Shown here piece by piece: positions 14,281-60,200 of a stretch of 64,000 bases of DNA (the stretch's first letter is position 1; every line of letters starts with the position of its first letter). The notes beneath the pieces were generated by a model. That model was not told where the DNA came from and ran no database searches. It was given only the letters and a program-made list of their open reading frames with translations. Made by a program: the position numbers and the translations under genes. The stretch lies in the NCBI GenBank assembly GCA_030390025.1, contig CM059432.1, positions 45,820,001 to 45,884,000 on the forward strand. The letters run 5' to 3'. The stretch is from Squalus acanthias (taxonomy: Eukaryota).

Positions 14281-15530
14281 ATGGCGAACATTTATTTCCT
14301 TTCCTCCTGGACATCAGATGAGGACGAACATCAGCCGCAGCAGCAGCAGAACCCTGAACACCAGCAGCACCAACTGCAGGAGCAACAGCAGCAGCTCCAA
14401 GCTGCTGCTCACCCACCTGAAGCTGCACAGGCCAGAGGGCGCAGCGCATGGAAGCACGTCGGCGCAGGAGATACCCCCAAAACAGGGTCTACAGACAGAG
14501 GATCAGCTACCTCAGCATAACTGAGCAGCAGTGCCAAAGGTGGCTCCGACTTTCACGAGAGATAGTGGGTGACATCTGCGCAATGCTGCAGCAAGAGCTG
14601 GAGCCCAGAGGAGCAGCTGGACACCCCTTACCAGTGCCCGTCAAAGTCACCACCGCACTCAACTTTTTTGCCTCAGGCTCATTCCAGGGATCAGCAGCAG
14701 ACATCAGCAGCATCTCCCAGGCGGCCGCACACACTTGTATCACGCAGGTAACCGATGCCCTCTTTGCCATCGTGCACAATCACATCCATTTCTCCAAGGA
14801 TCAAGCCAGTGTAAATGCGCGGGCGGTTGGGTTTGACAATCTGGCAGGCTTTCCAAGGGTGCAGGGCGTCGTTGACTGCACACATGTGGACCTTAAGGCA
14901 CCCCATCACAATCGAGGTATTTTTGTCAACCGCAAGGGCTTCCACTCCCTCAACGTACAGCTGGTGTGTGACCACAAGAAGGAAATTTTGCATGTTTGCG
15001 CCAAGTACCCTAGCAGTTACCATGACTCCTTCATCCTGCGCCAGTCTAGTGTGCCTCCACTCTTCAGTCTGCCAGACCAACATCACGGATGGCTACTTGG
15101 AGACAAGGGATATCCCCTGAAGACGTGGCTAATGACGCCGTTTAGGAGCCCATCCAACGAAGCTGAGGAGAGCTACAACTCGAGCCACATTTCCACCAGA
15201 TCCATAATCAAGCAAACCATCGGCTTGCTGAAGATGCACTTCAGATGCCTGGATAGATCAGGTGGAGCCCTGCAGTACTCAGCAGCCAGGGTCTCCAGAA
15301 TCGTCGTGGCTTGCTGTTCCCTTCACAACATGGCACAGCGTCGTGGCTTGCAGATTCCTGAGGACCAAGTGGCTCGTCACATATCCTCCTCAGATGAGGA
15401 GGAGGAGGATGAGGAGGAGGAGGGTGAAAACGCTCATCTTGCAGAGGCGCATCAACCAGCGGCAGCAGTACGCGAGAACATTGCTGCCCGGGATGCAAGG
15501 AACGCACTCATCTTGGCCAGATTTGCTTAG
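14281..15530 (+). pseudogene. Harbinger (HARBI1-like, DDE_Tnp_4) transposase, probably inactive
   Basis: [31 protein letters not shown]; the third catalytic position reads IIKQTIG, whereas the copy at ~38770 reads VIEQTIG; probable frameshift near 14445 between ATG 14281 and ORF 14448-15530. Confidence 0.88.
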
Positions 15531-25848: not shown

Positions 25849-26818
25849 TTCTGTCTCGGAAAACAGGGATCTGTTCTGGGATCCCTGTTGTTCACAGTAT
25901 TTGCAAATGGAACTTGATGCCTGTAACAGTATTCTTACATTTTCTAATGAGTGAAAAGAGCGTTATGTGCCTGGATTCTGCGGTAAGAACAGTGAGTCTA
26001 TCAGTACTCATCATTATTAAGGAGTAAATTGGACAGCAACTTCTGGCATCTGCACATGCGCAGTTAATCGCAGAAATCAGGAAGTTGCTGTCCGATTTGC
26101 GCTGCTCCTTCACAAGCTTCGCTACACCAGTACATCTCCAAAAGACTTGGCATTCAAACAGATGAATGGCATGAATTTGTGATACTTACCCACTAGATAC
26201 CCACTAAACTCACCTGAAAAAGTTAGGGCTTGTCCATTCAAGTGTATGTGAATTTTTAATGGCCTGATAAGTCTTAATTACTGCAAAACAACTTCTCCGG
26301 CACTGAAAATTAACTTTTACAACTGTGGAGTCTCATTCCTTCAGATTTTAATTATTGTTGGAGATTTAAAAAAATTAAAAAATTAAAATATTATTTTTTA
26401 CTTTTTCTTTCTGTCTCTTAGCTCCCTCTCTTAATCCCATCTTGCTTTCCCTATCTTTATTTCACTTTCTGTACAAGATTTTACATTGATTTAAATATTT
26501 AACTTATACTCCCTGGTTCAGACTCTGTGGTCTAAACGTTCGATTAGGCCTGAAAATGGGCCTGCACCTGTTGAAACTAATGCAGACAGCACGCGGCCTT
26601 CATGCTGCCTGCTAATTACCATACTTGATGCGTGCAGCCCAGCACTGAGTGCGCTTCTGAGTGGCTGAGTGCTCAGCAGGGGGCCGAAGTTTGTGCAAGG
26701 CTAGCTCTATTTAAAGCAAGCCTTCACTTTTAAAGGCAGTCTGCACCTCTTAAAGGTGAGGTGCATTCTGCATTCAGCAGCAGCTGGAAGTGCTTGTCAA
26801 GGAAACTGTGACTGAGTA

Positions 26819-28243
26819 ATGGCTCAACAGGGCAAAGAAAGGGCACCAAGGTTCTCTGATGCAGTACTAGAGGCCTTAGTGCTTGGAGTAGAAAGGTGGA
26901 GACAGGTCCTCTACCTGCAGGGGGCCAGGGTGCCCTCTAGACACAGTCAGAAGGCAGTGGGAGCAGATAGCCGAAGCAGTCACTGCCAGTAGTTTTGCCC
27001 CGAGAACCTGGATTCAGTGCTGAAAGAAGTTCAATGACCTCACATGAGTGGTTAAGGTCAGTGAATGCATCTTCAAAAGCCGTTCTCCTACCAACTGCAC
27101 CACTAACCTCACACACCGACCAACAATCTCTATCAATCACGACTCATACTCATACCTCACATTCATAGCTTCACCTCACCCTCACACACTTACCGCTGCT
27201 GCAAGCCTCACACCCACATCTCACACATTGCACGCACTGCTAGCTATTCAACCATGACAGGCACATCACCCAAACACATTGCACCACACTCACTGACACA
27301 CACATCACCCAATCACATTACACCACACTCACTGACACACACATCACCCAATCACATTGCACCACACTCACTGACACACACATCACCCAATCACATTACA
27401 CCACACTCACTGACACACACATCACCCAATCACATTACACCACACTCACTGACACACACGTCACCCAATCACAGTGAACCACACTCACTGACACACACAT
27501 CACCCAATCACATTACACCACACTCACTGACACACACATCACCCAATCACAGTGAACCACACTCACTGACACACACATCACCCAATCACAGTGAACCACA
27601 CTCACTGACACACACATCACCCAATCACATTGCACCACACTCACTGACACACACATCACCCAATCACATTGCACCACACTCACTGACACACACATCACCC
27701 AATCACATTGCACCACACTCACTGACACACACATCACCCAATCACATTGCACCACACTCACTGACACACACATCACCCAATCACATTGCACCACACTCAC
27801 TGAGGCACATATCACTCAATCATATTACACCACACTCACTGACACACACATCACCCAATCACATTGCACCACACTCACTGACACACACATCACCCAATCA
27901 CATTGCACCACACTCACTGACACACACATCACCCAATCACATTGCACCACACTCACTGAGGCACATATCACTCAATCATATTACACCACACTCACTGACA
28001 CACACATCACCCAATCACATTGCACCACACTCACTGACGCACACATCACCCAATCACATTACACCACACTCACTGACACACTTCCCTTTCTCTTGCAGGG
28101 GAAGGTGGCTCACAACTGCAGGCAGCAGCAGATGGGGAAGCCTGCACATCCTGACCCAGCTGGAGGAAACCGTGTTTGATATTATTGGAGGAGCCGTCAC
28201 TGAGGCCATAGCGATCAGCGAGGCTGAACCATTGAAGATGATG
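26819..28243 (+). pseudogene. Harbinger Myb/SANT gene exons 1-2, degraded
   Basis: MAQQGKERAPRFSDAVLEALV..WEQIAEAV..RTWIQC*KKFNDL with stops and a frameshift; donor gtcagt at 27057, acceptor ttgcag at 28098. Confidence 0.8.
27261..28080 (+). repeat. 39-bp minisatellite, about 21 copies
   Basis: Unit cacatcacccaatcacattgcaccacactcactgacaca. Confidence 0.97.
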
Positions 28244-28288
28244 GTATGCTCATACCTAATACGATAGCAAAATACTGCGGATGCTGGA

Positions 28289-28806
28289 TGATGTAAGCTC
28301 CCAAAGTGCGGACCCAGTGATATACAAGGTCGACGCTACTGGCTTGTTGGAAGAAAGACTGACCAAGTAATTGAAGTCACAACGGTTTATTACAGGCCTG
28401 GGGAGAACCTCTCATGTCGCTTACATGAGTACAACTCCACCGAGCTAATGAAAACACACATATTTATATCCAATCAGGTTTAAAAGTTACACACAATGCT
28501 AGGTCTAAAAAAACACATTACTCGTTTTACAAATATTTCTGTCTTGCCTTTACAGAGATCCAATTAGGTTTAAAAGTTACTTGGTTAGCAAACATTTCTG
28601 TCTCGCCTTATGGGGATCTCGTTATCCGAGGGTGGCTGTAAAAGTTACATACAATGCTATCTGTAAATCTCGTTGAAGGAGGTAGACTCCGAAAGCTTGT
28701 AAGGTGTTGTGTGACTTGAAACAAATCTCGTTAAAGGCCTGGCTTTCTGCAAATGAGTCATGCCCGAATTGCCCTGGTTATATCCAATTTTTAATATCTT
28801 ACTTCA
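28289..28806 (-). repeat. ERV 3' LTR
   Basis: No difference from 34605-35122 found by eye; preceded on minus by the PPT. Confidence 0.97.
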
Positions 28807-28819
28807 ATTCCCCCCTTTT
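28807..28819 (-). promoter_or_regulatory. Polypurine tract
   Basis: AAAAGGGGGGAAT directly before the 3' LTR. Confidence 0.92.
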
Positions 28820-29249
28820 GACCTATTGGACAACTGTTCCAATACAGGTCAACATGTATTCCTATTGCCTGGTGTCTGCCTGAGCGTGCACTCTCTGGCC
28901 TTCTACCAGTCTAGGTTATACATGGGTATGACATAAACCAATTTATAAGCCGGTTTCACCCCACGCGGTATATGTGGACTTATTATTTTCTTGTCTTGGT
29001 TCTATGTTGCCATCCCCGGGGCCCAAGAGCCCTGCATCAATGGTTTGGGCTTCTGGTTCGAGCTTCTGGTTCGAGCTCGTCCTCCATTCCCTCGGTGGGT
29101 GCGTGACGTGTCCTTTCGAGACTGTCATCACTCACCAATCCTGTTTCTGCCACTCCCGTCTTACGGTTGGCCGGCCTGGTTATTAATTACCATGTCCAAT
29201 TCATCCCTTGTAATTTTAGGGCTATAGATCGGGTCTTACACCATCATGG

Positions 29250-29476
29250 CTTTACCTAATCTTTGAGCAGCAAGAATACACAGTATATTGTAATAACAAT
29301 CACGAGGAATATCATTATGCTTTGCACCACTGAGGCGCCCAACGTCCCCGACCATCCTGACCCCCAATCACCAAAATATCATTTCCGGTGTTATATAGGC
29401 CATATATAAGCAGATACTTGATTATCTTCCTTTTTGTCAGCCGTCCCTTCTTCCGTCGTTCTTCTAATTTGTCCTG
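29250..29476 (-). pseudogene. env: env remnant (splice acceptor and transmembrane anchor only)
   Basis: CTAAC..ttgtatttccaCAG acceptor at 29474; YFGDWGSGWSGTLGASVVQSIMIFLVIVITIYCVFLLL is a membrane-proximal and TM-like segment; only ~870 bp lie between pol and the PPT. Confidence 0.6.
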
Positions 29477-29684
29477 TGGAAATACAAGGCTGGTCGTCAC
29501 CAGCAGTTAGTTATTCCATTCTTACTACTTTGCCAGTCTCCCAGATCTATTGAAACATACAGACCACGAAGAATGTTACTATCATAATGCAACAGGATCA
29601 TATTAACGTGAATACAAGGATGTCCTGTCCCTTTGGACCCTATGCAAATAATCCTTGCTTTCCTTGTACAATATGATTTCTGGG

Positions 29685-32523
29685 TTATTCATCAGCTTCT
29701 TTGTATAATTTTAATTGTGTCCAGTGTTTCCATCTTCCCTTTCCAGTGCCGTGCAGGTCTATGCATGCACAAGTGTCGCTGGTCATTAATACCAAATAGG
29801 GTCCTTCCCACCGGGGCCGTAACCCAGGTTTTATTGGAATTATTCTAGACATTACCTGACTTCCCACCCCAGGTATGACTTTCTTTTGTTCCTCGGTATC
29901 CCTCTCCAGATCCTTGATTATCTGCTGGTCTCTAGCCTCCTGTCTCAGCCCGTGCAGTTCCGCACATAATTGCTTTATGAACCTTCTGATTCTGTCCTTT
30001 AAAGGTCCCACATCTTCCCCTCCGGTCACTACTCCTTCGGGAAGCGCCATTGCCCGTCCCGTCATTAATTCAAAAGGGGTCAGTCCGGTGGTGCTATTTG
30101 GTGTGGCCCTTAGTCTCATTAGGATTGTGGGTAACAGTTCCGCCCATCCCTGCCCCGTCTCCACAATGGCCTTTGTGAGAGATCGTTTTAAGGTCCGATT
30201 CATTCGTTCCACCATTCCTGAACTTTCGGGATGGTAAGGTATATGAAATTTCTGCTTTACGCCCAACAGGGCGCAAGCCTCTTTCATTACCTTTCCGGTA
30301 AAGTGTGTTCCATTATCTGAATCTATTTGTAATGGGACTCCCCACCGGGGTATTATTTCTTCTGCCAAGATCCGGGCCACTGTACTGGCGGTACAGTTTC
30401 GGGTGGCAAAAGCTTCCACCCACCTTGTGAATTGGTCAATTATTACCAGACAGTAGGTTTTTCCTTTGCTTTTGGTTAATGGTCCTGTAAAGTCTATTTG
30501 TAGTTTCTCCCAGGGTCCCTTGGGTCTTGGCTGTCTACCCCATTTTACCTTTACTGGTTTTCCGGTGTTACATTGCGCACAAATGTGGCAATCCTTACAA
30601 TACTTCCTTATACTGCTTGATAGTCCGGGCCACCACCAGCATTGGCCTATGTTATTTATCATTCGGCTGGCCCCTGTATGGGCTTGTCCGTGATACAACC
30701 TCATTAGTTCCTGTTGGATACACTCCGGTGCACAGACCCGTCCCTCCTTCCTCCAGACCTTATCTCTGGATAGCATTACTCCCTTCTTTTCCCAAATGTT
30801 CAGCTCAGGTTCTGGTATGCCTTGATGTAACTTAACAATATTATACTCAAGGGGTATTAATGGGACTGGGGCTCCCCCTATCGGTGTTACATTGCCACAG
30901 GGCGCCTCCGTCATAACCTTGGCGGCCAGGTCTGCCGCTCTGTTACCTTGTTCTTGTGGAGTTTTTCCTTTGGTGTGCGCTTTAACCTTTATTACTGCTA
31001 ACTCCGTTGGTCCGCGCGCGGCATTCACCAAGGACTTTACTACGTCCAGGTGTTGGATGGGGGCTCCCCCAGAGGTGATGTACCCCCTCCTACTCCATGC
31101 GGCCATATAATCATGTACTATTCCGAAGGCGTAGCGGCTGTCGGTATATACATTAACCCTTTTTCCCATAGCCAGTTTCAGGGCTTCCGTTAAGGCTGTT
31201 AGTTCTGCGACCTGGGCAGATTTATCCCCTGGGAGAGTTCCGGCTAAAGTTAAAGAGACCGAGTACCTGTCGTACTCCTCTCACGTTTATGGGCCTTGGC
31301 ATTTGGCTGATTGCCTCCTTCCTTTCCTCTGGCATAGCCCTTTTTCCCATACTGACCCTATACCCGAGGTATGTGACTTCCAATTTTCCTACCTGGGCTT
31401 TGGCTGGGTTTGCTTTAAAACCCGCCTCCCGTAGGGTTGAAAAGACCTTTACCAGGGCCCCCTATGTCCCACTTTCGTTTCTGACGCTATTAGGAGGTCA
31501 TCCACGTATTGTAAGAGGGTACTATTTTCACCCTCTAAGTCTAGGTCTTCAAGAGCTCTGGCCATATGGCGGTGAAAAATGGCTGGACTGTTATGGAATC
31601 CTTGTGGGACCCGTGTCCATGTATACTGTTTGCCGCCTATTGTAAAGGCGAACTTTTCCTGTGATTCCTCATGCAGGGGAATGGACCAGAACCCGTTTGC
31701 GATGTCTAACACGGTGAATATTTTGTGTTCTGGTTTTAAACCGTTAAAGATAGTAGCTGGGCTTGCTACAATTGGATATTCCTTTGGGGTCACTTTATTT
31801 AAGGCTGTGTAATCGATTGTAAGTCGATATGACGCATCAGGTTTCTTTACGGGCCATACTGGAGAGTTAGTGCCGGACACTGTTTCTCGCAGAATTCCCT
31901 GTTTCACGAGTTCCAATACTATACTCCGTACGGCTGTCTGGGCCTCCACTTTTAGGGGATATTGTTTATGGGGTCGGTGGGTTGGCCCGGGGACTCTGAC
32001 TGGGTTCATCTTAACCAGTCCGCAGTCCTGCTTGTGTTTGGCCCATAGTTCGGGGAATCGGTGGCAAATTGCCCCCCACCCTCCCTTTTCGTCCCATTTG
32101 GGGTCTATTATTTGGATAGCGCTGATGGCACATGCTGTCTTGGATCCCTTTGAGTTATGTCTCCCTTCCTTGTGGTTATCGGGCCATAGCAACTTATCCT
32201 GTTTGGGGTCTATTAAAACTCCCACTTCCCTTAGTATGTCTATACCCAGGATGGTTCCCTCAGTATTCTCACAGATCCAGAAACATGTAGGTATAATGAT
32301 TTTTCCCAATTCTAGTAATACTGTCTCACTTTTCCATGCTTTAATTTTTACTCCCCCTATCCCAGATATAAAAATATTTTCCTTGGTTCGCGGCAAGGGT
32401 ACGTTTGTTAGAGATATTGCTGCCCCGGTGTCTATGAGCATTCTGCACTGTCGGCCCCCTACCAGTGCCTCAATAAACATTCTAGGGTCTCCCTTTACCG
32501 GGTCTCCGAGGGCCGCTACCTTT
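29685..32523 (-). pseudogene. pol: Pro-Pol (protease, RT, RNase H, integrase) with a frameshift and an internal deletion
   Basis: LIDTGA; WTRVPQGFHNSP; YVDD; frameshift in a G run at 31458-31462; thumb LGLFNFSR joined to RNase H SAQVAEL at ~31245; YTDSRY; integrase HHCC, QIDFTG, SDNGTHF, GMVERMN, WEGPY. Confidence 0.93.
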
Positions 32524-34048
32524 CAGGCGTTGCCTTTTTTTTTATCTGTTTGACCAGTTTTTCCATTTTCCTTGTCAGCTCCACTATGTCTTCCTCGTCG
32601 GAGGTGTCTGAGGAATCATCTCTCTTATACTTCCTACTCTTTCTCCTCTTCCTTTCTTCTCTTTCTCTGTCATCCTCCCAGTCTTGCATTCCCTTCCTGA
32701 TCAGTTTCGCCATGCTTTCCTCGTTATTCTCTGACCTTCCAATACTTGACCCCGGTTTTCCTCCCTGTCTAGGTCCCTGACCTTCCCTTCCTCCTCCTTT
32801 ATTCCAACATTGTTGTTTCCTATGCCCTGGTTTTCCACAATTATGACAGGAAGCCTTTTGCTGAGATGTCTGATTATCCCCTTTGTTCTGTTGCCTCGGG
32901 CAGTCCCTTTTCATGTGGCCCTCCTGTCCGCAACCGAAGCATGCCGCCACACTTAATGCATCCTCATTGTCGCTATCCGTCCTTAGGGCAGCTATTTTAG
33001 GTTTGGCTTGTTCTTGGACCTGAATTAAGTCCTCCCAATTATGGTGGACCACTAGCCCCATTTTTATTGCATTCTGGTGCATTGGACTTAGTCCCTGTTT
33101 AAATGTTTGCAGAAAACAAGCGTTGTTTTTGTTTAAGGGGCCTGGGATCCCACAGTTACCCTCAAAGGCGGACCACTTTCGTTTTCCATAATCGATAGCG
33201 CTTTCTCCCTTTTTTTGTGTGATTCCGCTTATAGCTGCCCAATTTACGGGGGCCTGTCCCATTGCTGCTTCCACAGCGGCCTTGAATTGGTCGAACTCAG
33301 TGTTTAATTGTTGGATTGTCTGTCCTGTATTTGTGGCCCACTGGCCATTTCCGTGGTTGCCCTGCACTAATCTCCACTGTTCCTCGGGACATTTAGCTCG
33401 TACCAATTGATCGATATCTATACTATGTAGGGCATGGTTTATGCGTACTTCGCGCAGTTTGTGCCAGAATGTCTGATTATTCTGGCGGTGTTTTAAGGCT
33501 GGTAATTCATTGAGGAGAATCACCCGATCCTGCAGGCTTAACGGTGTGTAGGTCAACGTTGTGGTGGCCGGCCTGCCCGGTACTGCCGGGACGGCCGGAT
33601 TCCCCCCTGCCGCCGGAATTTCCGGAACCGCGGGGATTGCTGGCCTATATTGCAGTGTCACTGGTGCCATCGGAACAGGCTCCGGGGCTGCCGACTGGTG
33701 TCCTGTATATGGGGGAGGACAGCCAGTCGGCCCCCCCTGGGGCAGCTCCGGGTATAACCTTTCCTGGGAGTTACCCGGTTTTGGGTTGGCTGCAGCTGCT
33801 GGATATGTTTTAAGGGCTCCGCGCTGGAGCATACGTTCCCGATCGTATCGTGCCGCTACGATAATGCACGCTTTCTCCAATTTATTTTTGGTTTGTTTCC
33901 TCCACCAGTCCCTTTGTGTGTCTGGTTTATCGTCCTGGTTCCACCCTGCCTTTCTCATTTTCTCAATTAATTTTTTATTCTTGTCGTAAACATATCGTGT
34001 TACAGACTCTGGGTCTCCCCAGGGTTCCTTATCCTCTTTGCTAGCCAT
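32516..34048 (-). CDS. gag: Gag polyprotein, 510 aa
   Basis: Late-domain motifs LYPEL and PPPY; MHR-like ITQKKGESAIDY; two CCHC knuckles CFGCGQEGHMKRDC and CHNCGKPGHRKQQC. Confidence 0.92.
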   Translation of the reverse strand: MASKEDKEPWGDPESVTRYVYDKNKKLIEKMRKAGWNQDDKPDTQRDWWRKQTKNKLEKACIIVAARYDRERMLQRGALKTYPAAAANPKPGNSQERLYPELPQGGPTGCPPPYTGHQSAAPEPVPMAPVTLQYRPAIPAVPEIPAAGGNPAVPAVPGRPATTTLTYTPLSLQDRVILLNELPALKHRQNNQTFWHKLREVRINHALHSIDIDQLVRAKCPEEQWRLVQGNHGNGQWATNTGQTIQQLNTEFDQFKAAVEAAMGQAPVNWAAISGITQKKGESAIDYGKRKWSAFEGNCGIPGPLNKNNACFLQTFKQGLSPMHQNAIKMGLVVHHNWEDLIQVQEQAKPKIAALRTDSDNEDALSVAACFGCGQEGHMKRDCPRQQNKGDNQTSQQKASCHNCGKPGHRKQQCWNKGGGREGQGPRQGGKPGSSIGRSENNEESMAKLIRKGMQDWEDDREREERKRRKSRKYKRDDSSDTSDEEDIVELTRKMEKLVKQIKKKATPER

Positions 34049-34584
34049 AGTTTATTTATTTATTTATTTATTTCTTTTTCGGCCAGAAGGACTTGTCCTT
34101 CACCCAGTGTTAAAACAACCTGTTTAACTACTTCTTAAGAGCCGCACCTCGTGGGCCTACCGGGTTTCTAAACCCTTGTTTGTTTATTTTAAAAACTCCC
34201 CGTTTTAACTACTACCTAAGTTTACTTTTCGGCCAGAAGGACTCGCCCTCCACCGTGTTAAAACTCCCCGTTTTAACTCCTACTTAAGTTTACTTTTCGG
34301 CCAGAAGGACTCGTCCTCCACCGTGTTAAAACTCCCCGTTTTAACTACTACTTAGGAGCCGCACCTCGTGGGCCTATCAGGTTTCTAAACCCTTGTTTTC
34401 CGGTACCGCAGTCCGGCAGTGTTAACCGCCTTCAATTAAAGGTGTCTTTCTTTTTATAGTTCTTTTGTACGTCAATCTTACTTAACGTCTCGCCAGCGAT
34501 TAACCTCTAATTTTACAGGTGGTAATTTAAACGTACTCACCCGTCTTAGGTTATCGCTGTCCGAGAGTTTTGTTCAGATCGCGC

Positions 34585-34602
34585 ATCCCACCCTCGTCGC
34601 CA
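34585..34602 (-). promoter_or_regulatory. Primer-binding site for tRNA-Ser(GCU)
   Basis: TGGCGACGAGGGTGGGAT, 2 nt after the 5' LTR, complementary to the vertebrate tRNA-Ser(GCU) 3' end ATCCCACCCTCGTCGCCA. Confidence 0.9.
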
Positions 34603-34604
34603 AT

Positions 34605-35122
34605 TGATGTAAGCTCCCAAAGTGCGGACCCAGTGATATACAAGGTCGACGCTACTGGCTTGTTGGAAGAAAGACTGACCAAGTAATTGAAGTCACAACG
34701 GTTTATTACAGGCCTGGGGAGAACCTCTCATGTCGCTTACATGAGTACAACTCCACCGAGCTAATGAAAACACACATATTTATATCCAATCAGGTTTAAA
34801 AGTTACACACAATGCTAGGTCTAAAAAAACACATTACTCGTTTTACAAATATTTCTGTCTTGCCTTTACAGAGATCCAATTAGGTTTAAAAGTTACTTGG
34901 TTAGCAAACATTTCTGTCTCGCCTTATGGGGATCTCGTTATCCGAGGGTGGCTGTAAAAGTTACATACAATGCTATCTGTAAATCTCGTTGAAGGAGGTA
35001 GACTCCGAAAGCTTGTAAGGTGTTGTGTGACTTGAAACAAATCTCGTTAAAGGCCTGGCTTTCTGCAAATGAGTCATGCCCGAATTGCCCTGGTTATATC
35101 CAATTTTTAATATCTTACTTCA
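34605..35122 (-). repeat. ERV 5' LTR
   Basis: TGAAGTAAG...CTTACATCA; TATAAAT at ~34778-34784; AATAAA at ~34702-34707; U3 repeats of tccaat(c/t)aggtttaaaagttac. Confidence 0.97.
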
Positions 35123-35195
35123 CTGGAAATCCGAAATAACAACAGAAAACGTTGGAAAAACTCAGCAGGCCAGGCAGCATCCGTGGAGAGAGAAA

Positions 35196-35236
35196 CAGAG
35201 TTAACGTTTCAGGTCGAAGACCTTTCGTCAGAACTG
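35196..35236 (-). ncRNA. Minimal type I hammerhead ribozyme motif, intact core
   Basis: cAGTT CTGACGA a AGGTC ttc GACCT GAAAC GTT AACT: conserved core, stem II, palindromic AACGTT stem III, stem I AGTT/AACT. Confidence 0.75.
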
Positions 35237-35500
35237 AAAAAGGGCAGGAAATGAAATAGATTTAAAGCAAGGATAAAGCTGGGAAAAGGGGGAGGGAATG
35301 AAAGAACAAAAGGAGAGATTAAGAGACATTGAGAGACATTAAGAGATGATCAAGGCAAGAGGAGGTGTTAATGTGACAGGTGGAGGCTAAAAGAAGTGTG
35401 AAATGCACTGGCAGAATGAAGGACAGCTGCCAGCTTCTGGGAGGGGAAAAAAAAGGTAGGCCAAACAAAAGGGTGGATGAAAAAATAAAATATAAATTGT

Positions 35501-36813
35501 TCCACCAGGATGGCCTGAGGGCGCTCCGCTTCTTCCTTGAACAGAGGCCCAACCAGTCCCCATCCACCACCACCCTCCTCCGCCTGGCTGAACTTGTTCT
35601 CACATTGAACAAGCTCTCATTTGACTCCACCCATTTCCTCCAAATCAAAGGTGTTGCTATGGGTACCCACATGGGTCTTAGCTATGCCTGCCTTATCGTG
35701 GGATATGTGGAACACTCTTTGTTCCAGTCCTACTCGGGTCCCCTCCCTCACCTCTTTTTCCAGTCCATTGATGACTGTATCGGTGCCGTCTCCTGCTCTC
35801 GCCCTGAACTAGAACATTTCCACCCTTCCCTCACCTTCACATGGTCCATCTCCGACTCTTCCCTTCCCTTCCTCGACTTCTCCGTCTCCATCTCTGGGGA
35901 TAGGTTATTGACTAACATTCACTACAAGCCCACTGACTCTCACAGCTACCTGGACTACACTTCCTCCCACCCTGCCTCCTGTAAGGACTCTATTCCATTC
36001 TCCCAGTTTCTCCGTCTCCGCCGCATCTGCTCTGACGATGCCACCTTCCATACCAGTGCTTCCGACATGTCTTCCTTTTTCCTCAACCGAGGATTCCCCT
36101 CTACTGTGGTCGACACGGCCCTCGACCATGTCCGTTCTATCTCCCGCACTTCTGCCCTCACCCCTGCCCCTCCCTCCCGGAACCAAGATAGAGTTCCCCT
36201 TGTCCTCACCTTTCACCCCACCAGCCTCCACATTCAACGGATCATCCTCCGCCATTTCCGCCACCTCCAGCGTGATCCCACCACCAAACGCATCTTCCCC
36301 TCACCTCCCCTTTCAGCATTCCGAAGGGACCGCTCCCTCCGCGACACCCTAGTCCACTCCTCTACCACCCCCAGCACCCCTTCCCCTTCGCCCTGCACCT
36401 TCCCGTGCAAGCGCAGGAGATGCAACACATGCCCTTATACCTCCCCTCTTCCCATTGTCCAGGGCCCCAAACACCCCTTCCAGGTGAAACAGCGATTTAC
36501 TTGTACTTCCTGCAATTTAGTATACTGTATTCGCTGCTCACGATGTGGTCTCCTCTACATTGGGGAGACCAAACGCAGATTGGGTGACCGCTTTGCGGAA
36601 CACCTCCGTTCAGTCCGTAAGGGGGACCCCGAGCTCCAGGTGGCCTGTCACTTTAATTCTCCGCTCCACTCCCACTCTGACCTCACCGTCCTCGGCCTAT
36701 TACATTGTTCCACGGAAGCTCAGCGTAAGCTCGAGGAACAGCACCTCATCTTTCGTTTAGGCACCCTACAGCCCTCTGGACTCAATATCGAGTTTAACAA
36801 TTTTAGATCATAA
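35501..36813 (+). pseudogene. Penelope-like RT (C-terminal part) and GIY-YIG endonuclease
   Basis: QIKGVAMGT, SIDD, HYKPTD, Cys linker FPCKRRRCNTC, VYCIRCSRCGLLYIGETKRRL..RFAEH, GLN. Confidence 0.92.
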
Positions 36814-36999
36814 CCTCAGCCCCTATCACATTTATATTTTATTTTTTCATCCACCCTTTTGTTTGGCCCCCCCTTTTTTTTCCCTCCCAGAAGCTGGCAG
36901 CTGTCCTTCATTCTGCCAGTGCATTTCACACTGCTTTTAGCCTCCACCTGTCACATTAACACCTCCTCTTGCCTTGATCATCTCTTAATGTCTCTCAAT

Positions 37000-37761
37000 G
37001 GCCCAAAAATTCGGCCGAATACGGGAGAGTACGAACTGTGCACTCTCGCGTATTCAGTCCCGAAGTGCCGGTTTCCTGCATGGATTGCGCATGCGCGGGA
37101 AACCGGCACTTCGGTTATGGCGAAGGGGGCGGTTCCTAAGTGAACCGCGTGCGCACTACAGGCTGTGCGCACGCAGCGCACTTAGGTTTTTTTCAGGTTT
37201 CAACGCCAAGGTAAGTATGGAAGATTTTACACATGAAGAAAGGAGGCGTAAGACCCCCTTTTAACAAGGTAAGTAGTTAATTAAGTATTATTTTAAATTT
37301 TTTTCAACAGGTTTATCTTTTTTAGAGACTTTAAAGAAAGGTAAGTTTATTTTTATAACTTTTAAAAAGAATTTAAAGTTTTTCAAAAATTTAAATTTTT
37401 GTTTAAAGTGGTTAATTTATTTAACTATAGTTATTTTATAAATGTGATGGTTTTTTTTAAATTTATTTGAGGTTTAGCTGTTCTTTTGGGGGCAATTTGT
37501 ATTCATACTTTTGACAGTTCTCCTGTCAAAGCTATGAATGAAAGATGCTGTGCTGCCATTAGCTCTCCATGCCCCACGTGATCCCAGAGGTCGCATCGAA
37601 CTAACTGCGCCTCTGGGACACGCACACACTGCGCACCGGCACTAGGGAGAGGCCCAGGAGCTGAAGTTCTTGTGGGCCCGAAACACAACGGCCGGCGCGG
37701 AGTGTGATATCGCGGGGGATCCTTACCCCCGCGGCAAGACTCGGAGTCAAATTTCTGGGCC
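37000..37761. mobile_element. Harbinger-type MITE, 762 bp, 3-bp TSD AAT
   Basis: TIR GGCCCAAAAATT / AATTTCTGGGCC; the empty site is visible in the inverted pLTR copy at ~35320-35345. Confidence 0.92.
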
Positions 37762-37855
37762 AATGTCTCTTAATCTCTCCTTTTGTTCTTTCATCCCCTC
37801 CCCCTTTTCCCAGCTTTATCCTTGCTTTAAATCTATTTCATTTCCTGCCTTTTTC

Positions 37856-37896
37856 CAGTTCTGACGAAAGGTCTTCGACCTGAAATGTTAACTCTG
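37856..37896 (+). ncRNA. Minimal hammerhead ribozyme motif, second copy with C>T in stem III
   Basis: cagtt CTGACGA aaggtcttcgacct GAAAtgttaact. Confidence 0.65.
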
Positions 37897-38399
37897 TTTC
37901 TCTCTCCACGGATGCTGCCTGGCCTGCTGAGTTTTTCCAGCATTTTCTGTTGTTATTTTGCTCATACCTAATCCTTCTTCTCAAATTTCACTTCCCCCTC
38001 ATCCCACAATCCCTTCTGATTTACAAGCTTGCTTCCCCCCCCCCCCCCCCCCCCACCTCACCACAACCCTACCCTTGTGCCATTCTCCTTTCAGATACGC
38101 AAGAACTCCAACCTGGCCAGAGTACAGGAAAGGCAAGAGGAGAGTGATTGAGAAGAGACACCATCACTCGATCTCACACTCGCAGGCACCAGCTCAGAAA
38201 CTGGCACTGCGCATACTTTAGAGTGTAATATAGAGGCGGGATCTGCACGTGGTGAGTCACCAGGCATGAGTGGCCTGCAGCCAGGGCAGGGGGAAAGGGT
38301 AGTGGTGGTTTTCATTTCAGCATTGTGGCCAAGGGGATGCTGTGATGTTCCATGACAGAGGGATAGTAAGGTGGGGGAGTGTTGAGCAATGGGGATCTG

Positions 38400-38481
38400 G
38401 GGTTTCATTCAGGGGTACCAGAGTCTGATGAGGCGCTCACGGACAGCCCGCCCAAATGTGGCTGTGCAAGCTGCCTCCTCC

Positions 38482-38518
<37 letters not shown>

Positions 38519-39622
38519 CTTCTCTTCCACCTCCTCCTCTTCTTCCTCCTCCTCCTTCTCTTCCACCTCCGCTTCCTCCTCCTCCTCCTCCTCCTGAGGT
38601 GGTTGCGGAACCCGTGGTGGCAAGGGCTGCGCCTTCATGATAGCCAAGATGTGGAGGATGCAGCAGACCACCATGAATTGGGACACCAGCACAAGCGAGT
38701 ACTGGAGAGCTCCTTCCAAGTGGTCAAGGCAGTGGAAACGTTGCTTCAGCACCCCGATGGTCTGCTCGATGACGTTCCTTGTGGCAGCATGGCTCTCATT
38801 ATATGAGTGCAGGCTACAAGTGGTGGGGTTGCAGAGGGGAGTCATCAGCCAGGTGTAGTGCAGATAGCCCTTGTTGCCGAGCAGCCACCCTCGTGTTCAA
38901 CGTGGTGACTGGAAGATTGCTAGCACACTGGACTGGCGCAGGATGAAGGCATCATGACTGCTGCCGGGATACCGGGCATTCAACAGCATGACGTTCTGGG
39001 CGTGATCACATACCAACTGCACATTAAGTGAGTGGAATCCTCTGCAGTTACGGAACATCTCACCATTGAGATGTAGCACCCACAAAGCCATGTGTGTGCA
39101 GTCGATGGCACCCTGCACCATGGGGATGTCTGCTATCCTGGCAAAGCCACGTGCGCACTACTCCTGCTTTTTTCGGTTCAGAGAGAAGACATTGAAGTCC
39201 CTTCTCCTGGAGTAGAGAGCCTCTGTGACCTCCCGGATGCAGCGATGGATGGTGAACTGGGAGATGTTTGCTATGTTGCCTGCTCCAGACTGGAAAAATC
39301 CGGTGGTGAAAAAATTGAGGGCCACGGTGACCTTGACTGCCACTGGCAGTGCTGTTGTTAACCTGCTCTGAGGCTGCAGGTCTGGTTGCAGGAGGTGGCA
39401 GAGTTCTGTGACCACTTCCTTGGTGAAGTGAAGCCTCCTAATACACTGCTCCTGGCTTAGGTGCAGGGGGGAGAAGTGCTCCCTGAAGTCCTTAGGTGGG
39501 TAAAGCCTTCTGCTGAGAGCCCTCCTCCCCCTGCTCCTACTCCCTCTGCGAGCAGCTTGTCTTCTTTGCTGCCTCTGCTCCATCTCCCTGTCATGCTGCA
39601 GCGACAACTAGCGCCCCCCATG
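38400..39622 (-). pseudogene. Harbinger transposase pseudogene
   Basis: [49 protein letters not shown], poly-E tail; split across frames. Confidence 0.9.
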
Positions 39623-41246: not shown

Positions 41247-43310
41247 ATAAGAACATAAGAACATAAAAAGTAAGAGCAGGAGTAGGCCATACGGCCCCTC
41301 GAGCCTGCTCCACCATTCAATAAGATCATGGCTGATCATCCACCTTAACTCCACTTTCCCGCCCGATCTCCATATCCCTTGATTCCCCTAGAGTCCAAAA
41401 ATCTATCTATCCCAGCCTTGAACATACTCAACGACTTAGCATCCACAGCCCTCTGGGGCAGAGAATTCCAAAGATTCACAACCCTCTGAGTGAAGAAATG
41501 CCTCCTCATCTCAGTCTTAAATGGCCTACCCCTTATCCTGAGACTATGCCCCCCTAGTTCCAGACACTCCAGCCAGGGGAAACAACCTCTCGGCATCTAC
41601 CCTGTTAATCCCCTTCAGAATCTTGTATGTTTCAATGAGATCACCTCTCATTTTTCTAAACTCCAGAGAGTATAGGCTCATTCTACACAATCTCTCATCA
41701 AAGGACAGCCCTCTCATCCCAGGAATCAGTCTAGTGAACCTTTGTTGCACCGCCTCCAAGGCAAGTATATCCTTCCTTAGATAAGGAGTCCAAAACTGTG
41801 CACAGTACTCCAGGTGTGGTCTCACCAAAGCCCTGTACAATTGTAGCAAAATTTCCTTACTCTGAAACGCCAACCCCCTTGCAATAAAGGCCAACATGCC
41901 ATTTGCCTTCCTTATTGCTTGCTGTACCTGCACGTTAGCTTTCTGTGTTTCTTGCACAAGGACACCAAAATCTCTCTGAACACCAACATTTGAAAGTTTC
42001 TCACCATTTAAAAAATATTCTGTTTTTCTATTCTTCCTACCAAAGTGAATAACCTCACATTTCCCTACATTATACTCCATCTGCCACCTTACTGCCCATT
42101 CACTTAGTCTATCTATATCCCTTTGCAGACTCTTTATGTTCTTCTCACAGCTTACTGTCCCACCTAGCTTTGTATCATCAGCAAACTTGAATACATTACA
42201 CTCGGTCCCTTCATCTAGGTCATTAATATAAATTGTAAATAACTGAGGCCCCAACACTGATCCTTGCGGCACCCCACTAGTTACAGCCTGCCAACCTGAA
42301 AAAGATCCGTTTATCCCTACTCTCTGTTTTCTGTCCGTTAACCAATCCTCTATCCATGCTACTATATTACCCCCAAACCCGTGAGCCCTAATCTTATGTA
42401 ATAACCTTTTAGGTGGCACTTTATCGAATGCCTTTTGGAAATCCAAATATACTACATCCACTGGTTCCCCTTTATCTACCCTGCTAGTTACATCCTCAAA
42501 AAACTCTAATAAATGTGTCAAACATGATTTCCCTTTCATAAAACCATGTTGACTCTGCCTAATCATGTTGTGATTTTTTAAGTGCCCTGATATCACTTCC
42601 TTAGCATTTTCCAGCATTCCAGCATTTTCCTGACGACTGATGTCAGGCTAACTGGCCTGTAGTTCCCTGTTTTTTCTCTCCCTCCTTTCTTGAATAGCAG
42701 TGTAACATTTGTGACCTTCCAATCCGCTGGGACCATTCTAGAATCTAGGGAATTTTGGAAGATCAAAACCAATGCATCCACTATCTCTTCAGCCACCTCT
42801 TTTAGAACCCTAGGATGTAGGCCGTCAGGTCCAGGGGATTTGTCGGCTTTTAGTCCCATTAGTTTCTCTAGTATTATTTTTCTACTTAAATTAATTATGT
42901 TAAGTTCCTCACCCTCATTAGACCCTTGGTTCCCCACCATTTTTGGTATGCTTTTTGTGTCTTCTACTGTGAAGACAGATACAAAATATTTGTTTAATGT
43001 TTCTGCCATTTCCTTATTCCCCATAATAATTTCTCCCGTCTCAGCCTCTAAGGGACCAACGTTTACATTTGCTACTCTCTTCCTTTTTACATACTTGTAG
43101 AAGCTCTTACAATCTGCTTTAATATTTCTTGCTAGTTTTCTCTCATATTCTATTTTTTCCCTTTTTATCAATTTTTTGGTCAACCTTTGCTGGTTTCTGA
43201 AACTCTCCCAATCCTCAGGCTTACTATTATTCTTTGCAACATTATAAGCTTCTTCTTTCAATCTAATGCTATCCTTAACTTCTTTAGTTAGCCATGGTTG
43301 GATGACTTTC
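41247..43310 (-). mobile_element. 5'-truncated CR1 LINE
   Basis: RT ORFs 42593-43261 and 41544-42617; (CATAAGAA)n tail. Confidence 0.93.
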
Positions 43311-43784: not shown

Positions 43785-44132
43785 TGGTGCAGTACTGGGG
43801 AAGTGCTGCATTGTCAGAGGTGTCAACTTTGGGATTAGACATTAAATCAAGGCTGCCTCTCCCTGTTCAGATGGCCATAATAGATTCCAGAGCAGGAAGT
43901 TCTTCTGGCGACGTGGTCAAAAATTCTCCCTCAAGCAAATCACCAAAGATAGATTAACTGGTCAGTAATTTCTTTGCTGTTTGTGGAATGTTACTGTAGG
44001 GGAATTTACTGCTGCATTTGCCTACAAAACAAGTGACAGCACTTCGAAAGTAAGTAATTGGCGGTGAAGTGCTTTCAGAGGTCTTGAGGACATGAAAGGA
44101 GCTACATAAATGCAAAATTCTTTCTTTTTTTC
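43785..44132 (+). mobile_element. Deu-domain SINE, degraded
   Basis: Similar to the reverse complement of 2067-2338 (gtgctgcattgtcagaggtg..attaaatcaaggc); tail ..ataaatgcaa..tctttctttt. Confidence 0.6.
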
Positions 44133-44159
44133 ACATATACATAATTTCTGGCAAACAGG

Positions 44160-46149
44160 AAGAAAGAGTTTTTATAGTTATATAAAAAGAAAAAGGGTGG
44201 CTAAAGTAAATGTTGGTCCCTTAGAGGATGAGACCGGGAAATTAATGGTGGGAAATATGGAGATGGCAAAAACACTGAATGAATATTTTGTATCAGTCTT
44301 TACAGTAGAGGACACTAAGAATATCCCAACACTGGACAAACAGGGGGCTATAGGGGGAGAGGAGCTAAACACGATCAAAATCACTAAGGAAGTGGTACTC
44401 GGTAAAATAATGGGACTCAAGGCGGATAAATCACCTGGACCTGATGGCTTACATCCTAGAGTCTTGAAGGAAGTGGCGGTAGGGATTGTAGATGCATTGG
44501 TAATAATTTTTCAAAACTCCCTGGATTCCGCTAAGGTCCCGGCAGACTGGAAAACTGCTAATGTAACACCCTTATTTAAAAAGGGCAGTAGACAGAAGGC
44601 TGGTAACTATAGACCGGTTAGCCTAACATCTGTGGTAGGTAAAATTTTGGAGTCCATTATTAAGGAAACAGTAACAGGACATTTGGATAATCATAATTTA
44701 ATAGGACAAAGTCAGCATGGTTTTACGAAGGGGAAGTCATGTTTGACAAATTTGCTGGAGTTCTTTGAGGAAGTAACATATAGAGTGGATAAAGGGGAAC
44801 CAGTGGACGTAGTGTATTTAGACTTCCAAAAGGCATTTGACAAGGTGCCACACAAAAGATTATTGCTTAAGGTAAAAAATCACGGGATTGGGGGTAATAT
44901 TCTGGCATGGATAGAGGATTGGCTATCTAACAGAAAGCAAAGAGTTGGGATAAATGGTTCATTCTCAGACTGGCAATCAGTAACTAGTGGTGTTCCACAG
45001 GGGTCAGTGCTGGGTCCCCAACTCTTCACAATCTATATTAACGATTTGGAGGAAGGGACCAAGTGTAACATATCAAAATTTGCAGATGATACAAAGATGG
45101 GAGGGAAAGTAGTGAGTGAGGAGGACATAAAAAACCTGCAAGGGGACATAGACAGGCTAAGTAAGTGGGCAGAGATTTGGCAGATGGAATACAACACTGG
45201 AAAGTGTGAGGTGATGCACTTTGGCAGGAAAAATCCTAGAGCAATTTATTATCTTAATGGCAAGAAACTGGAGAGTACTGAAGTGCAAAGGGATCTGGGG
45301 GTCCTGGTGCACGAAACTCAAAAGGTTAGTATGCAGGTGCAGCAAGTGATTAAGAAGGCAAATGGAATGTTGGCTTTCATTGCTAGGGGGATAGAATATA
45401 AAAATAGGGAGGTATTGCTTCAGTTGTACAAGGTATTGGTGAGACCGCACCTGGAATACTGCATACAGTTTTGGTGTCCTTACTTAAGGAAAGACATCCT
45501 TGCTCTCGAGGCAGTGCAAAAAAGGTTCACTCGGTTAATCCCGGGGATGAGGGGGTGGTCATATGAGGAGAGGTTGGGTAGATTGGGACTCTACTCATTG
45601 GAGTTCAGAAGAATGAGAGGCGATCTTATTGAAACATATAAGATTGTGAAGGGGTTGGATCGGGTGGATGCGGGGAGGATGTTCCCGATGACGGGTGAGA
45701 CGAGAACTAGGGGACATAGTCTTAGAATAAGGGGCTGCTCTTTCAAAACTGAGATGAGGAGGAACTACTTCACTCAGAGGGTGGTAGGTCCATGGAATAT
45801 GCTGCCACAAAAAGCTGTAGAAGCTACAACATTAATTAAATTTAAAACAGAAATAGACAGTTTCCTAGAAGTAAAGGGCATTAAGGGTTACGGGGAGCGG
45901 GCAGGAATTTGGACATGAGTCTAGGTTCGGATCGGTCATGGCCCTGTGGGTAGTGGAGCGGGCCCAGGGACTGTGTAGCCTGATTCTGCTCCTATTTCGT
46001 GTGTGCAATTCTGTTAGATGCAGGAGATGGTTCTGTGATAGATAGTAGATTGGCGGTTAGGATCAGATCAGCCATGATCTTATTGAATGGCGGAGCAGGC
46101 TCGAGGGGCCGATTGGCCTACTCCTGCTCCTATTTCTTATGTTCTTATG
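44160..46149 (+). mobile_element. 5'-truncated CR1 LINE with uninterrupted RT frame to 45918, plus a short extra CR1 3' UTR (~46045-46149)
   Basis: Complete RT motif set with no stops; CR1 3' UTR motifs. Confidence 0.93.
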
Positions 46150-59300: not shown

Positions 59301-60200
59301 GGGCCTAGAAATTGGATAAAGCCCAAAATCGGGCACGGGGATCGCGATGCACTATCAACGCACGCCCATTTGCAGGACTGTAGGCAACACGCAAACTTCG
59401 TGCTGTCTGCTAATTTACATGATTGTAGCATTCAGCCCAGCACTAATTGCGCCGCTGAGTGGCTGAACGCTCAGCAAAGGGCCGAAGTTCGTGCAAGGCT
59501 AGCTCCATGTAAAGCTAGGCTCCACTTCTTAAAGGCAGTCTGCACCTCTTAAAGGGGAGGTTCATTCTGCCTGCAACTGCTGCTGGAACTCGTTGTGAAG
59601 GCAAGGTTCAGAACGAAGACTACTGAAATATGATTAAACAGGCCAGAGAAAGAGCTCTAAGGTTCTCAGATGGAGCACTGGAGGCCTTGGTTCAGGAGGT
59701 CAACCCCAGGAGAGAGATCCTCTTTCCACAGGGGGCCAGGAGGCCCTCCAGCCAACAGACCAGACTGCAGTAGGAGCAGATAGCCACTATGGTAAATGCC
59801 AGCAGTTTAACCCCAAGGACCTTAACTCAGTGCAGGAAGAAGTTTAATGACCTCACACGAGTGGTCAAGGTCAGTGAATTCATCTTCAAATGCCATATCA
59901 TCCATCTGCACCACTAGCCTCACACAATGCAACACGCCCCCATCACTCACCTACCAACAATCTCTACCAAACACGACTCACACCTCACATTCATAGATTC
60001 ACCTCACTCGGACACACTTACCACCGCTGCAAGCCTCACACCCACATCTCACAACTTGCACTCACTGCCAGCTATTCAACCATGACAGCCACAACACCCA
60101 AACACATTACACCACACTCACTGACACACTCTTGCAGGAAAAGGTGGTGTATAACCGACGCCAGCAGATCTTAACTGGTGGGGGACAGGCTCGCCTTCAT
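59301..60200 (+). mobile_element. Harbinger left end with Myb exon 1, intron and start of exon 2
   Basis: TIR gggcctagaaatt; RFSDGALEALVQEV..QCRKKFNDL; parallels 26528-28150. Confidence 0.8.

What the first reader, a model, noticed from the sequence alone, without database searches (positions are those of the whole stretch)
28289..35122. Very recent, divergent endogenous retrovirus with matching LTRs, tRNA-Ser PBS and 5-bp TSD
Seen: two 518-bp LTRs with no difference found by eye, a perfect CTGGA TSD, a perfect 18-nt PBS and an intact gag. Known: gamma/epsilon-like ERVs usually make 4-bp TSDs, while 5-bp TSDs occur in class III (ERV-L/ERV-S-like) elements. The RT motif WTRVPQGFHNSP..YVDD resembles spuma-related RTs, but foamy Gag lacks the two CCHC knuckles seen here. 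Inference: this is a deep-branching (class III, snakehead-like or loki-like) fish retrovirus lineage that integrated very recently, so a replicating relative may still exist.
Basis: partly seen in the sequence, partly recalled or inferred. Interest (0 to 1): 0.8.

Follow-up and report, generated by a model that had tools for sequence, protein, structure and literature searches.

The report
Young, broken snakehead-clade fish provirus
A real retrovirus insertion with identical end repeats, likely in a shark or ray, has a broken polymerase gene and no envelope reading frame; it likely belongs to the known snakehead-retrovirus group and is likely a dead copy of a young multi-copy family rather than an infectious virus.

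Summary
The anatomy is real. The two 518-bp LTRs have 0 mismatches. The 5-bp TSD is true: a paralogue of the target carries the pentamer once. The PBS matches tRNA-Ser(GCT) 18/18, and gag is open with two CCHC knuckles.

Contigs of 4 of 4 laid runs match it almost letter for letter but differ at those pol breaks. One contig spans the same short env region. So it is likely one damaged copy of a young, multi-copy, mostly env-less family.

RT is closest to published turtle and whale-shark ERVs listed in clade Huo (snakehead-related; 72 and 70 of 86 columns by hand count), then SnRV (59), and far from loki, MLV, foamy and MuERV-L (47-41). A snakehead-clade shark ERV with a Ser-type PBS is already in print.

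'Very recent' is only bounded: at slow shark rates identical LTRs allow up to about 13 My. Verdict: new family of a known kind.

The parts
34605..35122 (-). 5' LTR, 518 bp, TG...CA; TATA-like box 34779-34784, AATAAA 34702-34707
28289..28806 (-). 3' LTR, identical to the 5' LTR; AATAAA 28386-28391
28284..28288 (.). target-site duplication CTGGA, left copy
35123..35127 (.). target-site duplication CTGGA, right copy
34585..34602 (-). primer-binding site, 18/18 complementary to tRNA-Ser(GCT), 2 nt from the LTR end
   Evidence: tRNA table in PMC10359600
34535..34541 (-). splice-donor-like site in the leader (predicted; would have served an env mRNA)
   Evidence: function inferred
34076..34398 (-). 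leader with internal duplications (68-bp tandem pair and a 105-bp repeat, 83-96% alike)
32516..34048 (-). gag, open, 510 aa: no Gly2, PPPY at residue 111, predicted orthoretroviral capsid fold, MHR-like motif, two CCHC knuckles (from 32941 and 32848)
31449..32522 (-). pro and RT fingers/palm (DTG at 32432, YVDD at 31508); not in frame with gag; ends at a frame break near 31460
31225..31461 (-). rest of RT (thumb start) in another frame, cut off by the deletion near 31240
31236..31245 (.). junction of an internal deletion of about 0.7 kb (tether and first part of RNase H missing); contigs leave from both ends of this 10-nt stretch
29685..31280 (-). truncated RNase H (first catalytic motif absent) and complete integrase (HHCC, DD35E, GPY motif)
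28820..29684 (-). about 0.87 kb where env should lie: no ORF over 64 codons; one strongly hydrophobic 40-codon piece (29256-29378), likely the membrane-spanning remnant of env
   Evidence: homology searches blank, so the identity is inferred
28809..28819 (-). polypurine tract, 2 nt before the 3' LTR
28261..37958 (.). host element that the provirus interrupts: Penelope-like retroelement with a GIY-YIG ORF (35377-36813), 97% identical inverted arms and its own 14-bp duplication (28247-28260, 37959-37972)

Best explanation
This is a provirus with identical LTRs, a broken pol and no env reading frame, likely a dead copy of a young, multi-copy, mostly env-less ERV family of the snakehead-related clade (clade Huo) in a host that is likely a cartilaginous fish. 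It likely arose the usual retroviral way. An LTR-to-LTR transcript was primed by host tRNA-Ser(GCT) at the PBS and by the polypurine tract. The linear DNA was trimmed by two bases at each end and joined by integrase with a 5-bp stagger into the end of a Penelope-like element. Shown: the cis signals, the duplication and the breaks. Inferred: the family spreads inside cells (retrotransposition) because its prevailing form lacks env; Pol is made by reading through a single gag stop; and the 0.7-kb pol loss came from an RT template switch or later recombination at a short repeat, so that this copy was made with enzymes from another transcript or broke after insertion.
For: Anatomy. Breaks: (255 codons between two pol landmarks in 4 close relatives, 43 nt here). 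Family: 19 of 20 listed runs from 8 studies hold at least half of the sampled words. In the 4 runs laid, long contigs differ by 0-3 letters per 1-2.7 kb; all four differ from the window by an indel at both frame breaks and run on into other letters at the deletion; minority haplotypes (29 differences in 327 nt) show further copies. One X1 contig spans 28509-31245 with no large insertion, so the env region is equally short there. Clade: the RT tree puts it with unnamed, Mustelus-cluster and Heterodontus rows (8 rows, 97/91), apart from the 48 gamma/epsilon-like rows. Hand counts over 86 RT columns: Ch_pi_ERV20 72, a Rhincodon row 70, Grar.ERVi.4 65, SnRV 59, a loki row 47, MLV 47, SFVcni 44, MuERV-L 41 (rows read). 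The labels Ch_pi_ERV20 and Rh_ty_ERV4 stand in the Clade Huo block of Xu et al. S2 Fig. Readthrough layout is seen in relative L001 and reported for SnRV. Env loss and spread: PMC4643047 passages.
Against: No tree with named SnRV, loki, foamy or ERV-L rows could be built; the hand counts use blocks I chose, and the clade label is read from the order of labels in a PDF figure. Gag has two knuckles where SnRV has one, and its best fold match is an epsilonretrovirus Gag (18% identity). Host is inferred from relatives, and turtle ERVs are about as close in RT. Copy number is not measured: contig depth is no copy number. 240 loose ends, 60 variant rows and 7280 pieces were not shown, so env-bearing copies are not excluded. 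One frame break sits in a 9-nt homopolymer and may be an assembly error. The env remnant has no homology support.
Confidence: 0.75

Rival explanations
1. The family is the trace of an ongoing or recent germ-line invasion by an infectious, env-bearing snakehead-clade retrovirus, and the env-less form is only its most copied defective derivative.
For: Identical LTRs, near-identical copies across samples, CpG ratio 0.66 against 0.37 in the rest of the window. A splice-donor-like site and a likely TM remnant point to an env-bearing ancestor. A diverged variant appears in the env region in run X13. Related RT rows from cyprinids are documented invading ERVs with intact genes. A run with another organism code is 99.9% alike.
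Against: No contig shown leaves the env region for a long insert, and one spans it unchanged. A survey found invading ERVs in 0 of 13 cartilaginous fishes. Slow shark mutation rates make old elements look young.
Confidence: 0.15
2. The breaks in pol, and possibly the LTR identity, are assembly or polishing artefacts; the real locus equals the prevailing family form.
For: All four laid runs differ from the window at both frame breaks at full depth, one break is in a homopolymer, and no listed contig bridges the deletion junction.
Against: A 0.7-kb loss bounded by a 10-nt stretch from which contigs leave on both sides, and a 24-nt in-frame loss in gag, are typical of RT template switching (established knowledge). 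Contigs drop rare variants, so a one-locus change would not show. The LTR sequence is matched with 0 substitutions by contigs of all four runs.
Confidence: 0.15
3. It is an old, fixed insertion (millions of years) that only looks fresh because the host mutates slowly; the family is long silent.
For: The 95% bound from 0/518 is 13 My at 2.2e-10 per year, or about 4 million generations at 7e-10 per generation. Near-identical sequence under several organism codes would fit shared descent.
Against: Three long X1 contigs over about 5.6 kb show one substitution each, which points to about 1-2 My at most at that rate (my arithmetic). The interrupted Penelope element is itself young (97% arms, perfect 14-bp duplication).
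Confidence: 0.2
4. It is a lokiretrovirus, a foamy-like ERV or an ERV-L/ERV-S-type class III element.
For: Integrase's best solved match is foamy integrase (136 bits). A 5-bp TSD and a Ser PBS are reported for XtERV-S, the TSD also for ERV-L. The RLTIDY motif is shared with loki rows.
Against: RT columns 47, 44 and 41 of 86 against 59-72 for Huo rows. YVDD rather than YIDD; two CCHC; no dUTPase found. The Gag model matches MLV, HTLV and WEHV2 capsids, with human spumavirus Gag at rank 38.
Confidence: 0.04

Closest known systems
Clade Huo ERVs of Xu et al. 2018 (PMC6001957): Ch_pi_ERV20 and related turtle rows, a Rhincodon typus row (probably Rh_ty_ERV4), An_ja_ERV1
   Same: Highest RT identity among published rows seen (72 and 70 of 86 columns); the turtle rows carry the exact WTRVPQGFHNSP motif; labels lie in the Clade Huo block.
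   Different: Those are partial or degraded rows; LTRs, TSD, PBS, Gag and env status were not seen for them. Only about 70-80% alike in the most conserved blocks, so this is a separate family.
Snakehead retrovirus (SnRV)
   Same: RT 59 of 86 columns, YVDD; non-myristylated Gag; gag-pol by stop-codon readthrough in SnRV and likely here.
   Different: SnRV is an 11.2-kb complex, infectious virus with env and accessory ORFs, one zinc finger and an amber stop. This is 6.8 kb, defective, with two knuckles.
CmiERV lineage I of the elephant shark (Han 2015, PMC4422223)
   Same: Snakehead-clade ERV in a cartilaginous fish. Its scaffold-2 copy shows a PBS matching tRNA-Ser(AGA/TGA) just after the LTR (one search read).
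   Different: LTRs 3.3% diverged, dated about 75 My; different Ser isoacceptor; defined as env-bearing. Sequence identity to it was not measured.
Unnamed database relatives: Mustelus asterias cluster (P0003/P0233/P0235), Heterodontus francisci P0009, P0002/P0230
   Same: RT core 71-72% (59% for P0009); Gag 36% to P0009 with two knuckles.
   Different: Annotated only as uncharacterized proteins; they keep the tether and full RNase H.
XtERV-S (PMC8278194) and ERV-L
   Same: 5-bp TSD; Ser PBS, identical LTRs and TGA-bounded pol in XtERV-S.
   Different: YIDD, no CCHC, dUTPase, TGT...ACA ends and Ser(AGA/TGA) there; YVDD, two CCHC, TGA...TCA ends and Ser(GCT) here.

Membership tests
Retroviridae (ERV, not Ty3/gypsy) | LTR-gag-pro-RT-RH-IN order with a second, retroviral RNase H behind a tether; orthoretroviral capsid | tested here: met
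   PF00075 with best solved match MLV RNase H; tether and RNase H both in relative P0230; capsid fold. The tether is deleted in this copy.
Clade Huo / SnRV-like ERVs | RT closer to SnRV and Huo ERVs than to gamma, epsilon, spuma, ERV-L or loki | tested here: met
   Hand counts 72, 70, 65, 59 versus 47, 47, 44, 41 of 86; label block; tree separates it from gamma/epsilon-like rows
Clade Huo / SnRV-like ERVs | Supported placement in a tree that holds named SnRV, ERV-L, foamy and loki references | not testable with these tools
   No named reference protein came back or 42
SnRV proper | One NC zinc finger | tested here: not met
   Two CCHC against one
SnRV proper | Complex 11-kb genome with env and accessory ORFs | tested here: not met
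   6.8 kb, no ORF over 64 codons after pol
SnRV proper | gag-pol expressed by stop-codon readthrough | tested here: inconclusive
   Junction is out of frame in this copy; a single TGA bounds the pro frame; relative L001 has an in-frame single stop
ERV-L / ERV-S / XtERV-S (class III) | YIDD catalytic motif, no Cys-His box, dUTPase | tested here: not met
   YVDD, two CCHC, no dUTPase Pfam hit
ERV-L / ERV-S / XtERV-S (class III) | 5-bp TSD | tested here: met
   shared but not diagnostic
Spumaretrovirinae / foamy-like ERVs | Gag without zinc knuckles or MHR; foamy-type RT | tested here: not met
   RT 44 of 86 to SFVcni
Lokiretrovirus | RT grouping with loki rows | tested here: not met
   47 of 86 columns to one loki row; both loki rows shown read PFG where this reads PQG. 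Only 2 of 62 motif places were viewed.
Lokiretrovirus | Env like paramyxovirus fusion protein | not testable with these tools
   env is absent but for a short remnant
Gamma / epsilon (class I) | RT within class I | tested here: not met
   Separated from 48 class-I-like rows at 99/98 (those rows are labelled by Pfam, host and motif, not by virus name); MLV 47 of 86
Invading ERV (ERVi, PMC10435555) | Identical LTRs | tested here: met
Invading ERV (ERVi, PMC10435555) | [quoted passage not shown] | tested here: not met
Invading ERV (ERVi, PMC10435555) | Insertional polymorphism | not testable with these tools
   Both flanks are multi-copy repeats and only contigs were available; no host genome held

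The most novel reading that the evidence does not exclude
A snakehead-clade retrovirus has shed its envelope and is still moving as a retrotransposon in cartilaginous fishes, a group where a 13-genome survey found no invading ERV; near-identical copies under more than one organism code would then mark recent spread between species, with an env-bearing parent still in circulation.
Probability: 0.15. Interest if true: 0.62.

Novelty: new member of a known kind. Interest (0 to 1): 0.32.

Why it matters
Shark-lineage ERVs described so far are old (54-75 My for the dated CmiERVs), and none counted as invading in 13 genomes. A young multi-copy family fixes the 5-bp integration footprint, the Ser(GCT) primer and a two-knuckle Gag for a poorly described branch of clade Huo. 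It would also be a handy test of env loss leading to spread in a slow-mutating host, and a source of insertion markers. The single broken copy itself is ordinary.

Tried and rejected
Host genome search: none held, so no copy census. Word-indexed search with Gag found nothing; the exhaustive search did find Gag relatives. Viral contig scans gave 0 confirmed relatives among 17 and 27 pattern hits. The metagenome scan confirmed 2 of 206, both 45% relatives without a usable PBS. The PBS pattern in viral contigs gave 37 loci with 0 tRNA genes; tRNA identity came from a paper table instead. Rfam found nothing in 26000-38500. Env remnant: no Pfam, homologue or Atlas hit; the pieces are 40-63 aa, so the blank says little. 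The pro-RT structure model was unusable (pLDDT 33) and was not searched. No RNA holder listed. The joint 34604 to 28289 is only the 5' LTR mapping onto the 3' LTR, not a circle. Loose ends at 28288 in runs X1 and X10 are paralogous Penelope ends, not proof of an empty allele here. Earlier findings of this scan: nothing. The RLTIDY motif was dropped as a clade marker because loki and some other rows share it.
Full report
OBSERVATION. The element lies on the minus strand from 35122 to 28289 (6,834 bp). Its LTRs (34605-35122, 28289-28806) are 518 bp with 0 mismatches, start TG and end CA, and the identity does not extend one base beyond them. Of duplication lengths 1-11 only 5 fits. The target is the end of a repeat with a paralogue in the window; that paralogue reads through the site with the pentamer once, so the 5-bp TSD is a real integration footprint. 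The PBS (34585-34602) equals the last 18 nt of tRNA-Ser-GCT-1-1 in the table of PMC10359600. It and the polypurine tract each stand two bases from an LTR, as expected for integrase end trimming (established knowledge). gag is open for 510 codons with two CCHC knuckles.

This copy cannot replicate alone. gag and pro are in different frames. RT breaks frame shortly after YVDD, near 31460, and continues in another frame. Near 31240 that piece runs into RNase H: two landmarks 255 codons apart in four close relatives are 43 nt apart here, and the first catalytic motif of RNase H is gone. About 0.7 kb is missing. Integrase is complete. Between pol and the 3' LTR there are about 870 nt with no ORF over 64 codons. 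One 40-codon piece is strongly hydrophobic (window mean 3.0) and looks like the membrane anchor of Env, but Pfam, the protein search and the Atlas gave nothing for these short pieces. With a splice-donor-like site in the leader, I infer an env-bearing ancestor.

THE FAMILY. No host genome is held. Of 20 listed runs from 8 studies, 19 hold at least half of the sampled words; five organism codes appear and none is on record as RNA. I laid 4 of the 20 on 28060-34604. Long contigs differ from the window by 0-3 letters per 1-2.7 kb. All four runs differ from it by a small indel at each of the two frame breaks, at full depth. Contigs of X1, X5 and X10 stop matching at 31245 and run on for 500-900 other letters, and X13 has a loose end there. 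Three runs also show 24 more bases in gag. So these breaks are private to this copy, or partly assembly errors; one sits in a 9-nt homopolymer. In contrast, one X1 contig spans 28509-31245 with no large insertion, and X5 and X10 pieces match parts of that region, so the short env region appears to be the prevailing form. Minority haplotypes (29 differences in 327 nt) show more than one subfamily. Limits: depth is no copy number; 60 variant rows, 240 loose ends and 7,280 pieces were not shown; whether the prevailing form codes an unbroken Pol is left open.

AGE. 0 of 518 bounds LTR divergence at 0.58% (95%). That is 13 My at the 2.2e-10 per year that Han assumed for sharks, 1.3 My at the mammalian rate, or about 4 million generations at the 7e-10 per generation measured in the epaulette shark. 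Identical LTRs alone therefore do not show 'very recent'. Three X1 contigs over about 5.6 kb carry one substitution each, CpG is little depleted (0.66 against 0.37), and the interrupted Penelope-like element is itself young. Young is likely; currently active is not shown. Polymorphism could not be tested because both flanks are repeats.

RELATIONSHIPS. The nearest database proteins are unnamed or uncharacterized: P0002/P0230 and a Mustelus asterias cluster (RT core 71-72%) and Heterodontus francisci P0009 (Gag 36%). Weaker Gag relatives come from a sea turtle, an eel and other teleosts. The host is therefore likely a cartilaginous fish; this is inferred. A 78-row RT tree (77 matches from 76 stored proteins; matches covering fewer than about 125 residues were dropped; midpoint drawing, no named viruses) holds the window in a supported 8-row group with these relatives, apart from 48 gamma/epsilon-like rows. 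For named viruses I counted identities by hand over 86 columns (pro-RT residues 218-245, 269-294, 299-318, 336-347): Ch_pi_ERV20 72, the last Rhincodon row of Xu et al. 70, Grar.ERVi.4 65, SnRV 59, one loki row 47, MLV 47, SFVcni 44, MuERV-L 41 (rows). The Rhincodon row's name was not printed; Rh_ty_ERV4 is my inference. In the S2 figure text of PMC6001957 the labels Ch_pi_ERV20, Rh_ty_ERV4 and An_ja_ERV1 lie in the Clade Huo block with SnRV, and the paper defines Huo as snakehead-related and as including class III ERVs. The Gag model (pLDDT 77) matches orthoretroviral capsids (MLV, HTLV, BLV; WEHV2 Gag first among viral models), with foamy Gag at rank 38. Against a simple reading: integrase's best solved match is foamy, and SnRV has one knuckle, an amber stop and accessory genes.

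MECHANISM. Shown: cis signals, footprint, breaks. Inferred: a transcript from the 5' LTR was reverse-transcribed from tRNA-Ser(GCT) and integrated with a 5-bp stagger. Pol in the family is likely made by readthrough, since one TGA bounds the pro frame here, relative L001 has gag and pol in one frame split by one stop, and SnRV and XtERV-S are reported to do so. With env lost, spread would be intracellular, the route linked to high copy number in PMC4643047. The pol deletion, bounded by a 10-nt stretch from which contigs leave on both sides, fits a template switch or later recombination.

NOVELTY. Snakehead-clade ERVs in cartilaginous fish are in print, and the elephant-shark copy's printed sequence shows a Ser(AGA/TGA) PBS. 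The lineage is thus known. I found no description of this family in the searches; most subscription papers and repeat libraries such as Repbase or Dfam were not searchable, so it may be catalogued there. The invading-ERV survey lists 0 of 13 cartilaginous fishes, and this copy fails its intact-gene test. Verdict: new member of a known kind, interest 0.32.

PAPERS SEEN. PMC8278194: passages and Results part 1 of 3. PMC4422223: text part 1 of 2 and supplement passages. PMC10435555: passages, section 6 and supplement passages. PMC6001957: passages, S2 figure text and passages of files including file 7. PMC7947760: passages and passages of a supplement that was cut when stored. PMC12193657, PMC13517186, PMC1224870, PMC2717909, PMC4977317, PMC10587355, PMC4643047: passages. 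PMC10359600, PMC9072684: one passage each. Other papers: search listings only. The figures themselves and unseen parts of these supplements may bear on the clade call. The names Penelope and Harbinger for the flanking repeats rest on Pfam hits plus recalled knowledge.

Noticed in passing
window 28247-37972: Three-tier nest: the provirus sits in the end of a Penelope-like element (GIY-YIG ORF, inverted arms 97% alike) that has its own perfect 14-bp duplication and interrupts a very high-copy repeat, likely Harbinger-related.
   Followed up: partly
runs X10 (organism B) versus X1, X5, X13 (organism A): A run under another organism code matches the element with 0-1 differences in pieces of up to 1.3 kb; codes C, D, E hold 0.79, 0.52 and 0.39 of the words. 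Could be congeners, loose labels or transfer.
   Followed up: no
window 33619-33986 and 29600-29696: Minority contigs about 9-10% diverged in gag (runs X5, X13, X10) and in the env region (X13): at least one older subfamily.
   Followed up: no
window 28301: Three runs (X5, X13, X10) share the same loose end 12 nt inside the LTR end: a variant LTR terminus or another insertion.
   Followed up: no
window 32516-32720: After the second knuckle Gag has a long charged, predicted helical tail (residues 442-505).
   Followed up: no
L001:1112-6460: A 45% relative with open gag and pol in one frame split by a single TAG, one knuckle and an unusual YCDD catalytic motif; its cluster has 30 members.
   Followed up: partly
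window 14421-15527: Open 369-aa DDE_Tnp_4 (Harbinger-type) transposase ORF; a 67% alike inverted piece lies at 38838-39149.
   Followed up: partly
window 27138-28050: 39-bp tandem array of about 21 units just left of the insertion, with a shorter relative near 59976-60129.
   Followed up: no
window 5824-7419, 41547-42647, 44110-45915: Several LINE-type RT ORF remnants 70-85% alike; the window is almost all repeats.
   Followed up: no
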